NCBI RefSeq assembly: GCF_036507355.1
Contig: NZ_AP027877.1
Source of the DNA: Escherichia coli
GTDB lineage: Bacteria > Pseudomonadota > Gammaproteobacteria > Enterobacterales > Enterobacteriaceae
Strand: one strand, 5' to 3'
Length of the DNA stretch: 64,000 nucleotides
The notes under the pieces are model-generated. The model ran no database searches. It saw only the letters and a program-made list of their open reading frames with translations, and was not told where the DNA came from. Positions 58,211 through 63,434 of this stretch are shown here, piece by piece; positions within the stretch are counted from its first letter, which is position 1; each line of letters starts with the position of its first letter. The translations under genes were made by a program, and so were the position numbers.

Positions 58211-60520
<2,310 letters not shown>

Positions 60521-60719
60521 GATCGTAATTAAGCTTTTTTGATTATGTCCGAATTCGGACAAATGCTTTATAAAAAAGGGTTTTAGCTTCATATCCTTCA
60601 AGTAATGAGGGAGAAAACAAGGCTGATAACCTTATTTTCCCGCCCTCATTTCGAGGCAGCATTTTGTGCTCTGTTTAAAATTTGTGATCACTGTGTGATT
60701 TTCGCAAAAGCCACACTAT

Positions 60720-61613
<894 letters not shown>

Positions 61614-61700: not shown

Positions 61701-62108
61701 AAGGGCGTCAACCGAAAAATGACCAATGATGGTGAGGAAAAATCAGGGAAGATGAATTTTCTTCATCTGTATATGGGAGTAGATAGGTTCTCTCGCATTA
61801 TCGCGTCGTGAAGTAATGAATAAATGCTTAAGCCATCGGCTGGAAATTTATTTAAATAAGAGTTAATTAATATTCACGACGGTGTTAGCTGAACACTTAT
61901 TTAAATAAAACAAATAGATACCATAATTTGCATTCATTACTGCATGTTTATTATTTGAACTACTTCAAACTATTAATAATTTTTCAAAAATTATGTTGCA
62001 GAGCAATTATGTATCCCCCACGATAAGTAGAACGTTCTACTAGAACGTTCTACTTATACAAAAAAGACTAATTCGCGCAGCTTTATGCGCTATTCGGGGG
62101 AAATCAGC

Positions 62109-63434
62109 ATGAGTCTGATGTCGAGTTTCGTGAAGTCACTTTCTAAATTATCGATGATTGGTCGCGCCCTAATGCTACCAATTTCGCTTCTGCCTGCCGC
62201 GGGGTTGTTACTCGCGTTCGGCGATAAATTCCATTTGCCGTTGATGATGAATGCGGGCGGCATTATTTTTGATAACTTGCCGATGCTTTTTGCTATCGGT
62301 TCCGCCGTAGGGCTGGCTTCTGAATCGGGAATTGCGGCGTTATCCGCAGCCGTTTCCGTTTTTGTCACCAATATCACCATCAGCACCGTACTTAGCATTA
62401 CGCCAGAAATGGCCGGGCAAGGCGGCAAATACGCGATGGTGGTGGGGATCCCAACACTGCAAATGGGCGTTTTTGGCGGCCTGATATGCGGGATTCTGGC
62501 GGCGTGGTGTTACAACCGTTTTCATACAATGCAATTGCCAGAATTCCTTGGTTTTTTCTCCGGAAAACGCTTTGTGGCTATCGCGACGGCTTTTCTCTCC
62601 TTCATTCTTGGCTTGTCACTGCCTTATGTCTGGCAACACATTCAGTCAGGAATCGATGCGTTATCGGTTATCGTTAATGGTAACAACCAGGCAGCATCAA
62701 CCTTTATTTTTGGTGTAACTGAACGGGCGCTCATTCCGCTTGGCCTGCACCACATCTGGTATCCATCGTTTTGGTATTCTTTTGGGGATTACACTACCCA
62801 TGCCGGGCAAATGATTCACGGCGATCAGACGATTTGGTTCAAGATGTTGGAAGAAGGGGTGAAATCATTTAGCAGCGACAGTTATCATGACGCTGGTAAA
62901 TTTATGCAAGGTGAATTCCCACTGATGCTGTTTGCCCTGCCTGCGGCGTGCCTGGCGATGTATCTGCTGCATGCACATATTGCCAAATCCTTCTCTGCGG
63001 GGCTTATTGACTATATTTCGTTTGGTATCCTGCCATCCTTTAATGGCTACGAAACCAACTTCCTGAGCGCCATTATCGTCGGCGTGCCAATGGCGGTGAT
63101 CTACTACTTCACCTTCCGCTTTGTTATTCGTCGTTTTGATGTAAAAACGCCTGGTCGCACCGAAACTACGGTTAGCGCTAATGATAAATCCGATGACGAG
63201 CTGGCAACAGAAATCATCACGCTGCTTGGCGGTCAGCAAAACGTTAAATCGGTAGGTTCCTGCATCACGCGTTTACGTCTGGAAGTCTCTGATAAAGAAG
63301 CGGTGGATCAGGATGGTCTGAATAATATTGGCGCCCGTGGCGTGGTTTTTGTCGGCGATAACGGCATTCAGGTAATTTTTGGCGCGCGAGCGCAATTTAT
63401 CGCGCAAACCATGTCGACGATGATCGGTAAATAG
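62109..63434 (+). CDS. PTS glucose/glucoside-family EIICB component (substrate unknown; alpha-glucoside-type suspected)
   Basis: 441 aa from MSLMSSFVKSL (the in-frame ATG at 62085 is less likely; GGGGGA SD sits before 62109); polytopic EIIC domain plus C-terminal EIIB with active-site Cys in GSCITRLRLEVSD; not expected upstream of metF in K-12. Confidence 0.8.
   Translation: MSLMSSFVKSLSKLSMIGRALMLPISLLPAAGLLLAFGDKFHLPLMMNAGGIIFDNLPMLFAIGSAVGLASESGIAALSAAVSVFVTNITISTVLSITPEMAGQGGKYAMVVGIPTLQMGVFGGLICGILAAWCYNRFHTMQLPEFLGFFSGKRFVAIATAFLSFILGLSLPYVWQHIQSGIDALSVIVNGNNQAASTFIFGVTERALIPLGLHHIWYPSFWYSFGDYTTHAGQMIHGDQTIWFKMLEEGVKSFSSDSYHDAGKFMQGEFPLMLFALPAACLAMYLLHAHIAKSFSAGLIDYISFGILPSFNGYETNFLSAIIVGVPMAVIYYFTFRFVIRRFDVKTPGRTETTVSANDKSDDELATEIITLLGGQQNVKSVGSCITRLRLEVSDKEAVDQDGLNNIGARGVVFVGDNGIQVIFGARAQFIAQTMSTMIGK

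What the first reader, a model, noticed from the sequence alone, without database searches (positions are those of the whole stretch)
61848..61908. Second pair of perfect palindromes TTATTTAAATAA spaced 49 bp apart in the metF / PTS intergenic region
The 12 bp perfect palindrome TTATTTAAATAA occurs at 61848-61859 and 61897-61908 in the AT-rich region between the divergent metF and the PTS island. An exact 12-mer repeated twice within 60 bp is unlikely by chance even in AT-rich DNA. It could be a pair of binding sites for a global regulator or nucleoid protein, or a remnant of the insertion junction.
Basis: seen in the sequence. Interest (0 to 1): 0.3.

Follow-up and report, generated by a model that had tools for sequence, protein, structure and literature searches.

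The report
Twin AT-rich palindromes upstream of PTS operon
Two identical 12-base A/T palindromes really do sit 49 bp apart in a very AT-rich, Escherichia-only stretch of DNA between metF and a sugar-transport operon; they are not chance and not an insertion scar, but they lie outside the operon's conserved control region and are at most auxiliary protein-binding or architectural DNA of modest interest.

Summary
TTATTTAAATAA occurs at 61848-61859 and 61897-61908 and nowhere else in the window. It is absent from 570 kb of other enterobacterial DNA. Local dinucleotide shuffles reproduce a repeated 12-nt palindrome in 0-2 of 20,000 trials.

Both copies lie on the non-K-12 side of the junction, 78-140 bp inside it. 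They sit in a ~185-bp spacer (73-76% A+T) found only in Escherichia versions of a metF-[PTS EIICB, malI-like repressor]-metL cluster. The operon's real control region starts downstream: a CRP/FNR-type site, TTGCAG, and two TAGAACGTTCTA operators conserved in ~78 of 80 loci. Other genera lack the spacer and the motif.

Among seven Escherichia alleles the perfect pair exists only in the window/E. whittamii type. The other type has TTATTTAAATGA and ATTTTCAAATAA. Two 12-nt blocks overlapping the copies are invariant at preserved spacing, while the DNA between them is randomised.

Junction scar, MalI or NagC/Mlc operator, structured RNA and mobile element are rejected. My best reading (0.4) is auxiliary A/T-tract elements of an H-NS-type bound upstream region. 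A functionless duplicate (0.35) is nearly as likely. Interest is low.

The parts
61848..61859 (.). Palindrome copy 1, TTATTTAAATAA
   Evidence: It reads TTATTTAAATGA (11/12) in all L-type Escherichia alleles and is identical in E. whittamii.
61897..61908 (.). Palindrome copy 2, TTATTTAAATAA
   Evidence: It reads ATTTTCAAATAA or ATTCTCAAATAA (9/12 or 8/12) in L-type alleles; only the right half is conserved.
61846..61857 (.). Invariant block A, ATTTATTTAAAT, overlapping copy 1
   Evidence: Identical in all 7 distinct Escherichia alleles. Its start is 108 nt upstream of the start of the CRP-like site in both allele types.
61903..61921 (.). Invariant block B, AAATAAAACAAA (61903-14) plus AGATAC, of which GATAC (61917-21) is invariant across all seven alleles: the right half of copy 2 and the adjoining bases
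61771..61953 (.). Escherichia-specific AT-rich spacer (73-76% A+T, the most AT-rich stretch of the 64-kb window) that holds both copies
   Evidence: composition. (no counterpart in Kluyvera or Klebsiella). (filler randomised between alleles at preserved length).
61847..61909 (.). Extended inverted repeat (18-nt arms 61847-64 and 61892-909, 17/18 complementary, 27 nt between the arms), a by-product of the two palindromes
   Evidence: The fold gives -16 kcal/mol, z = -2.9. There is no consensus structure or covariation across alleles.
61753..61765 (.). TGAA-N5-TTCA inverted repeat (MetR-type box by own knowledge). It marks the end of the conserved metF control region and the point where the K-12, W and L haplotypes diverge.
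   Evidence: The MetR assignment rests on own knowledge and was not tested.
61954..61969 (.). CRP/FNR-type 16-mer TTTGA-N6-TCAAA, the upstream edge of the conserved PTS control region
   Evidence: Matches TGAGA-N6-TCTCA and TGCGA-N6-TCGCA in Kluyvera and others. It lies 84-86 nt from operator 1 in other genera and 74 nt in Escherichia.
62027..62053 (.).
   Evidence: Conserved in ~78 of 80 orthologous loci. The downstream regulator passes the NCBIfam MalI cut-off and is annotated MalI by PGAP.
62109..63434 (+). PTS EIICB gene (glucose/NAG/maltose family) with an in-frame 58-codon deletion
60720..61610 (-). metF (divergent neighbour)

Best explanation
The two TTATTTAAATAA copies are the best-preserved A/T-tract elements of a ~185-bp, 73-76% A+T spacer. 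Only Escherichia versions of an old metF-[PTS EIICB, malI-like]-metL cluster carry this spacer, between the metF control region and the PTS promoter. They are not the operon's primary operators. That role belongs to a CRP/FNR-type site, a TTGCAG/CACGAT promoter and two TAGAACGTTCTA MalI-type operators further downstream. I infer that the spacer is bound by an abundant protein that prefers AT-rich DNA: H-NS/StpA class first, with Lrp, Fis or IHF as alternatives. On this reading the two blocks serve as preferred nucleation or bending points, roughly 130 and 180 bp upstream of the presumed transcription start. That would dampen the CRP-dependent PTS promoter and buffer it from the divergent metF promoter. 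The perfect identity and dyad symmetry seen in this window are allele-specific. They are better explained by descent from a short local duplication, or by template-switch correction of a quasi-palindrome, than by a requirement of a dimeric regulator. Shown: position, rarity, allele distribution, block and spacing conservation. Inferred: protein binding, the identity of the protein, the effect on transcription, and the transcription start site.
For: Non-random and rare. Located in the most AT-rich 176 nt of the 64-kb window (76% A+T). Palindrome positions are much better conserved between the two Escherichia allele types than the rest of the spacer: 20/24 against 68/152, Fisher p = 3.4e-4. Of the eight invariant runs of >=8 nt in the island-side non-coding DNA, six map to recognisable promoter parts and two overlap the palindromes. 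Spacing is preserved (49 vs 50 bp between copies; block A to CRP-like site 108 nt in both) although the filler shows no detectable homology (z = 0.8, -0.4, -0.4). Other intergenic DNA of the same island is 70-89% identical. Copy 1 with its flank (TAAATAAATT) fits 8/10 of the published H-NS template tCGATAAATT, and that paper reports two identical high-affinity sites in proU as a precedent (PMC2094087).
Against: The palindromes are no better conserved than fourfold-degenerate sites of the neighbouring genes: 83% against 74-77%, p = 0.26. The real anomaly is the randomised filler, not hyper-conserved palindromes. Within-allele polymorphism is only marginally depleted (1 variable column in 24 against 30 in 176; about p = 0.07). 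H-NS matrix scores are mediocre: 7.45, rank 93 in the window, and 5.3 for the palindrome cores. The motif itself is weakly specific, since about 39 of 99 random 500-bp regions contain one. The operon works without any such spacer in roughly 78 other loci. The operon in this strain is decaying, so selection on its regulation may be relaxed. There are no binding or expression data.
Confidence: 0.4

Rival explanations
1. No sequence-specific function. The pair is a mutational by-product in low-complexity AT-rich DNA, arising from a short local duplication or from template-switch perfection of a quasi-palindrome. It survives simply because too little time has passed for it to decay. The L allele shows that decay in progress.
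For: Palindrome identity between alleles (83%) is statistically the same as at synonymous sites (74-77%; p = 0.26). Dyad symmetry is lost in copy 2 of all L alleles. The motif is absent in every other genus carrying the operon. It lies 46-106 bp upstream of the conserved control region. The L allele holds a third partial copy, AATTTATTTAC, showing that such words recur in this DNA.
Against: It does not explain why the surrounding filler is randomised while the two blocks stay identical and all three filler lengths stay within 1-3 nt. Two shared 12-mers at syntenic positions in otherwise unrelated sequence are unlikely by chance (my estimate is around 1e-3 or less).
Confidence: 0.35
2. The blocks are recognition sites of a dedicated, still unidentified Escherichia transcription factor. 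It would recognise ATTTATTTAAAT and AAATAAAACAAA rather than the palindrome as such, and would co-regulate the PTS operon with CRP and the MalI-like repressor.
For: The blocks are as invariant as the CRP-like site and the operators across seven alleles, and they sit at a fixed distance from the CRP-like site.
Against: The island carries no candidate regulator gene other than the MalI-like repressor, whose operator is TAGAACGTTCTA. The motif was not found elsewhere in the window or in 570 kb of related DNA. The two blocks differ from each other apart from a TTTATTT/AAATAAA core. The 12-mer gave no relevant literature hit.
Confidence: 0.15
3. A scar of the island's insertion: target-site duplication, att core or transposon ends.
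For: The copies lie in non-K-12 DNA near a haplotype boundary, and they are both direct and inverted repeats of each other.
Against: Both copies are on the same side, 78-140 bp inside the boundary, which falls at the MetR-like box. There is no copy at the metL-side junction or in the K-12-type intergenic region. metF-PTS adjacency predates Escherichia. No integrase or transposase is present. The spacer has no relative in E. coli genomes, plasmids or phages.
Confidence: 0.02
4. The two copies pair to form a functional RNA hairpin or a DNA cruciform.
For: Predicted hairpin of -16 kcal/mol, z = -2.9.
Against: The pairing is an automatic consequence of two identical palindromes. The stem is all A-U. 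Rfam gave no match. The consensus fold across alleles is -0.3 kcal/mol with no compensatory changes. The simple consensus scan found only as many promoter-like sites in this region as dinucleotide shuffles give (2 found vs 2.1 expected), and no terminator-like site.
Confidence: 0.03

Closest known systems
H-NS high-affinity (nucleation) sites, e.g. the two identical TCGATATATT sites of the proU regulatory element (Lang et al. 2007, PMC2094087; Bouffartigues et al. 2007 as cited there)
   Same: Two identical short A/T-rich sites with TpA steps, embedded in a longer AT-rich tract next to a promoter. The tract composition (73-76% A+T) is typical of H-NS targets. Copy 1 with its flank fits 8/10 of the template.
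   Different: The palindrome cores score poorly on a matrix built from the published sites (5.3). There are no CG dinucleotide positions. The sites are far upstream rather than flanking or downstream of the promoter. No binding data exist.
E. coli K-12 malI-malX control region (CRP-dependent promoters repressed by MalI); own knowledge plus the PGAP and NCBIfam naming here
   Same: The neighbouring operon is a PTS EIICB gene plus a MalI-subfamily LacI repressor with a CRP-type site and ACGT-centred palindromic operators.
   Different: The TTATTTAAATAA pair is not part of that conserved architecture. It is absent from ~78 orthologous loci and bears no resemblance to the TAGAACGTTCTA operator.
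Switched or replaced intergenic regions between conserved flanking genes in E. coli (regulatory-region replacement by recombination; own knowledge, not checked in the library)
   Same: Three unrelated haplotypes (K-12 type, W, L) start at the same point just beyond the metF control region. Filler DNA is non-homologous between W and L while the flanking genes are 91-100% identical.
   Different: Two short blocks and all segment lengths are retained across the 'switch', which simple replacement does not predict.
Quasi-palindrome correction by template switching (own knowledge)
   Same: Could turn two imperfect inverted A/T-rich words, such as those in the L allele, into two perfect identical palindromes, as in the W allele.
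   Different: The direction of change cannot be polarised because no outgroup carries the spacer. This was not tested.

Membership tests
H-NS high-affinity binding site (Lang et al. 2007) | 10-bp match to tCGATAAATT with a central TpA step | tested here: inconclusive
   Copy 1 plus flank, TAAATAAATT, has a template fit of 8/10 and a PWM score of 7.45 (rank 93 in the window). The palindrome cores score 5.3, just above the weakest published site at 4.9 (sites taken from PMC2094087).
H-NS high-affinity binding site (Lang et al. 2007) | Embedded in an extended AT-rich tract (ChIP-bound regions average about 61% A+T) | tested here: met
   The spacer is 73-76% A+T, the most AT-rich 176 nt of the window.
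H-NS high-affinity binding site (Lang et al. 2007) | H-NS occupancy or footprint, and hns-dependent expression | not testable with these tools
   The locus is absent from K-12, so no public ChIP data could be consulted.
Operator pair of the island's own LacI/MalI-type repressor | Motif co-occurs with the regulator and its target gene across genomes | tested here: not met
   The PTS and malI-like genes are present in 80 loci. TAGAACGTTCTA x2 is conserved in ~78 of them, while TTATTTAAATAA (<=2 mismatches, pair) appears only in E. whittamii.
Operator pair of the island's own LacI/MalI-type repressor | Conserved dyad symmetry with a central CG, typical of LacI-family operators (own knowledge) | tested here: not met
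   The centre is TTT|AAA. Symmetry of copy 2 is lost in the L alleles.
NagC/Mlc (ROK) operator | 23-bp quasi-palindrome around a central base, with invariant TT/AA at positions +/-5,6 (PMC4288165) | tested here: not met
   The 12-mer has abutting arms and an even-length centre with no ~9-bp core. TT-N9-AA alone is non-diagnostic in AT-rich DNA.
Insertion junction: target-site duplication or att site | Repeats bracket the inserted segment at the boundaries between native and foreign DNA | tested here: not met
   The boundary lies at 61756-61770. Both copies are inside it on the same side, and none occurs at the metL side or in the K-12-type sequence.
Dispersed repeat or MITE | Multiple copies elsewhere in the genome or in related genomes | tested here: not met
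   The spacer had no match in 5,426 E. coli genomes, in plasmids or in phages.
Structured RNA or intrinsic terminator | Conserved structure with covariation, or a match to a described family | tested here: not met
   No relevant Rfam match, no terminator-like site, and a consensus fold of -0.3 kcal/mol with 0 compensatory pairs.

The most novel reading that the evidence does not exclude
The two invariant blocks (ATTTATTTAAAT and AAATAAAACAAA) are held at fixed distances from the CRP-type site while everything between them has been randomised at constant length. On the most novel reading they form a bipartite, spacing-dependent recognition element for an uncharacterised Escherichia DNA-binding protein or nucleoprotein complex. 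That element would have been recruited to an old PTS/malI-type operon only in this genus. The locus would then be a natural example of a regulatory module kept by selection while its surrounding DNA is swapped or scrambled.
Probability: 0.12. Interest if true: 0.4.

Novelty: new member of a known kind. Interest (0 to 1): 0.2.

Why it matters
If the blocks are real protein-binding elements, this locus would be a compact natural test case. It would show how an accessory sugar-transport operon wedged between two core met genes is silenced or insulated. It would also show how short A/T-tract sites and their spacing can be maintained while the surrounding intergenic DNA turns over. If they are not functional, the value is cautionary: an exact 12-mer repeat far beyond compositional chance can still be a lineage-specific mutational relic. 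The practical outcome for annotation is that the operon's real control elements are the CRP/FNR-type site and the two TAGAACGTTCTA operators, not this pair.

Tried and rejected
- **Chance from AT-richness:** rejected by local shuffles and by rarity in 570 kb of related DNA.
- **Junction scar, TSD or att site:** rejected.
- **Mobile or dispersed element, or plasmid/phage origin:** the spacer had no match in E. coli genomes, plasmids or phages. The metagenome pattern scan returned only one L-type contig.
- **Invertible segment between the inverted copies:** reverse-complement comparison of the W and L alleles shows nothing.
- **RNA hairpin, terminator or Rfam family:** rejected.
- **MalI-type operator:** rejected.
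- **NagC/Mlc operator:** the geometry does not fit.
- **Literature search for the 12-mer and for the operator 12-mer:** only irrelevant primer or heat-shock-element hits. A search for a MalI/malX promoter paper found none in the library.
- **Consensus comparisons from memory:** Fis, IHF, Lrp, ArcA (AGTTAATTAA at 61861-70 between the copies), Fur, KdgR, RcsB, DeoR, PhoP, OxyR and CytR were compared by eye. None gave a convincing full-site match, and none was tested with a matrix. They remain leads only.
- **Promoter scan:** the promoter-like hits on the + strand (one uses the TTTAAA of copy 2 as a -35) are no more numerous than in shuffles and are not conserved in the L allele.
- **Small ORFs in the spacer:** they differ completely between alleles.

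Full report
**1. The observation**

The 12-nt perfect palindrome TTATTTAAATAA is present at 61848-61859 and 61897-61908, 49 bp start to start. These are the only two copies in the 64-kb window, even when one mismatch is allowed. The local DNA is AT-rich: 70% A+T for 61757-62025 and 73% for 61800-61990, against 48% for the window. I therefore shuffled only the local region while preserving dinucleotides. A repeated 12-nt palindrome arose in 0-2 of 20,000 shuffles, and any repeated exact 12-mer in about 0.6%.

The motif is also rare in general. Similarity extends a little beyond the 12-mers: a 21-nt direct repeat matching 18/21, and 18-nt inverted arms matching 17/18. The 'first pair' implied by the title is TAGAACGTTCTA at 62028 and 62041.

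**2. Context**

On the minus strand lie katG (58211-60430) and metF (60720-61610). On the plus strand, from 62109, lies a PTS EIICB gene followed by a LacI-family gene that runs off the window. The source is an E. coli lineage. The PTS protein is deposited as E. coli, and the flanking core DNA is at best 98.9% identical to RefSeq complete E. coli genomes.

In 5425 of 5426 complete E. coli genomes, homology to the metF-PTS intergenic region stops at window 61756-61769. This point falls inside a TGAA-N5-TTCA inverted repeat at 61753-61765. By my own knowledge that repeat has the form of a MetR box, and it is conserved as far as Kluyvera and Klebsiella. Beyond that point the K-12-type sequence is unrelated and contains no such palindrome. 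Both copies therefore lie in non-K-12 DNA, 78-140 bp inside the boundary.

Eight complete E. coli genomes carry a related island at the same site: PTS EIICB, malI, a 5'-nucleotidase/metallophosphatase, a hypothetical protein, then metL. The same divergent metF-PTS adjacency is found in Kluyvera species and in Klebsiella spallanzanii. The 'island' is thus an old arrangement that most E. coli lack, not a recent insertion. No integrase or transposase accompanies it.

**3. The operon's real control region**

I compared the DNA upstream of the PTS gene in 80 loci from many Enterobacterales genera. Tandem TAGAACGTTCTA-type operators with a 13-bp period are present in about 78 of them. The downstream regulator passes the NCBIfam MalI-subfamily cut-off (325 bits against 310), and PGAP names it MalI.

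An alignment of the metF-adjacent loci shows three further conserved elements:
- a 16-bp CRP/FNR-type palindrome, TTTGA-N6-TCAAA at 61954-61969 here, and TGAGA-N6-TCTCA or TGCGA-N6-TCGCA in Kluyvera;
- a TTGCAG motif at 61996-62001;
- a CACGATAAG motif running into operator 1.

The CRP-type site lies 84-86 nt from operator 1 in other genera and 74 nt in Escherichia, one helical turn less. The transcription start is inferred at about 62031 and has not been mapped. None of these other genera has the AT-rich spacer or the palindromes. Their corresponding DNA is shorter, 42-62% A+T, and cannot be aligned.

**4. Variation within Escherichia**

I assembled seven distinct alleles of the intergenic region.

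- **W type:** the window, a one-SNP variant, and E. whittamii. All have the perfect pair.
- **L type:** four sub-alleles from E. coli and Shigella-labelled records. Copy 1 is TTATTTAAATGA. Copy 2 is ATTTTCAAATAA or ATTCTCAAATAA. The spacing is 50 bp.

Dyad symmetry and identity of the two copies are therefore not the conserved property. What is invariant in all seven alleles is ATTTATTTAAAT (61846-57) and AAATAAAACAAA (61903-14), followed by AGATAC, of which GATAC is invariant across all seven.

Across the island-side non-coding DNA there are only eight invariant runs of >=8 nt. Six map to the CRP-type site, TTGCAG, the two operators, and the 5'UTR/RBS. The other two are these blocks.

**5. 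How much constraint?**

Between the W and L types the palindrome positions are 20/24 identical, against 68/152 for the rest of the spacer (Fisher p = 3.4e-4). But fourfold-degenerate sites of the adjacent PTS and malI genes are 74-77% identical. Against that yardstick the palindromes are not unusually conserved (p = 0.26), whereas the rest of the spacer is unusually diverged (p = 2e-11).

The three filler segments are indistinguishable from shuffled sequence (z = 0.84, -0.39, -0.41), yet they keep their lengths: 75/72, 45/46 and 32/31 nt. Block A starts 108 nt before the CRP-type site in both alleles. The island's other two intergenic spacers are plainly homologous: 70% identity (84% outside one indel) and 89%, with z = 12.6 and 16.1.

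Within allele types, 30 of 176 spacer columns vary but only 1 of the 24 palindrome positions does (about p = 0.07). I have no tested explanation for filler that is randomised at preserved length. It fits either replacement of the regulatory region from a deeply diverged allele, with selection on the blocks and their spacing, or some local mutational peculiarity. This observation keeps a functional reading alive.

**6. Mechanisms tested and rejected**

- **Junction scar, TSD or att site:** both copies are on one side, well inside the boundary. None occurs at the metL side or in K-12-type DNA.
- **Mobile or dispersed element:** the spacer has no relative in E. coli genomes, plasmids or phages.
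- **Inversion between the inverted copies:** no signal.
- **RNA hairpin or cruciform:** the -16 kcal/mol hairpin (z = -2.9) is the automatic result of two identical palindromes. There is no Rfam family. The consensus fold across alleles is -0.3 kcal/mol with no compensatory pairs.
- **Operator of the island's MalI-like repressor:** its operator is TAGAACGTTCTA, and the palindrome does not travel with the regulator.
- **NagC/Mlc operator:** those are 23-bp quasi-palindromes with TT/AA at +/-5,6 around a central base (PMC4288165). Here the arms abut.

**7. The H-NS lead**

Lang et al. derived tCGATAAATT from footprinted sites and noted two identical high-affinity sites in proU (PMC2094087). I built a matrix from their Table 1.

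- Copy 1 with its 5' flank (TAAATAAATT on the minus strand) scores 7.45. That is comparable to the weaker true sites, but only rank 93 in the window.
- The palindrome cores score 5.3, against 4.9 for the weakest published site.
- The motif is weakly specific by the authors' own control.
- The spacer is, however, the most AT-rich 176 nt of the whole window at 76%. By established knowledge, that composition makes it a likely target of H-NS-type proteins.

**8. Verdict**

The repeat is real and non-random. It belongs to an Escherichia-specific AT-rich spacer outside the operon's conserved control region.

- **Best reading (confidence 0.4):** the two blocks are auxiliary A/T-tract elements of a spacer bound by nucleoid proteins. 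They would dampen or insulate the CRP-dependent, MalI-repressed PTS promoter. The perfect palindromic identity is an allele-specific legacy of a small duplication or templated correction.
- **Nearly as likely (0.35):** the pair has no sequence-specific function.
- **Dedicated unknown regulator:** 0.15.
- **Junction scar and RNA or cruciform structure:** about 0.02-0.03 each.

The operon in this strain is itself decaying. The PTS gene has an in-frame 58-codon deletion, the 5'-nucleotidase is cut to 135 aa, and one gene has been lost. This lowers the likely physiological relevance here. Interest is low (0.2). The one feature worth a specialist's second look is the conserved-blocks-in-randomised-filler pattern.

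Noticed in passing
window 62023-62057: Two tandem palindromic operators (TAGAACGTTCTA at 62028 and 62041, 13-bp period; together a 17-nt perfect inverted repeat). They are conserved upstream of the orthologous PTS EIICB gene in ~78 of 80 loci across Enterobacterales, next to a MalI-subfamily repressor. No bacterial literature hit was found for the motif.
   Followed up: partly
window 61954-61969: CRP/FNR-type 16-mer TTTGAACTACTTCAAA. Its counterparts in other genera are TGAGA-N6-TCTCA or TGCGA-N6-TCGCA. It lies 84-86 nt from operator 1 elsewhere but 74 nt in Escherichia, one helical turn less.
   Followed up: partly
window 62109-63434: The PTS EIICB gene has an in-frame 58-codon deletion between two 'AMY' repeats (441 aa against 499 aa in all orthologues). 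This removes part of the EIIC domain and probably inactivates the transporter.
   Followed up: partly
L084 5504-5911 (same allele as the window, beyond its end): In this E. coli lineage the island is decayed. The 5'-nucleotidase/metallophosphatase is cut to a 135-aa C-terminal fragment (517 aa elsewhere), and the 376-aa hypothetical gene seen in strain LHM10-1 is missing.
   Followed up: no
L091/L092 about 1420-1440 (E. coli/Shigella-labelled allele): This allele has lost exactly one 13-bp operator unit, leaving a single operator. It carries an acetyltransferase gene in place of the nucleotidase downstream of the malI-like gene.
   Followed up: no
window 61750-61770: Three unrelated haplotypes (K-12 type, W, L) diverge at the same point, within or just after a conserved AGATGAA-N5-TTCATCT inverted repeat (a MetR-type box by own knowledge). 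The site behaves as a recombination or replacement boundary.
   Followed up: partly
window 61771-61953 vs L001 3160-3339: Filler DNA of the spacer shows no detectable homology between the W and L alleles, yet each of the three segments keeps its length within 1-3 nt. The island's other intergenic regions are 70-89% identical. This remains unexplained.
   Followed up: partly
window 60546-60561 and 1813-1828: Two 16-bp perfect palindromes: TGTCCGAATTCGGACA in the katG-metF intergenic region, and CCCACCTTAAGGTGGG.
   Followed up: no
This is a recollection only. It was not tested, and the sequence is not conserved in the L allele.
   Followed up: no
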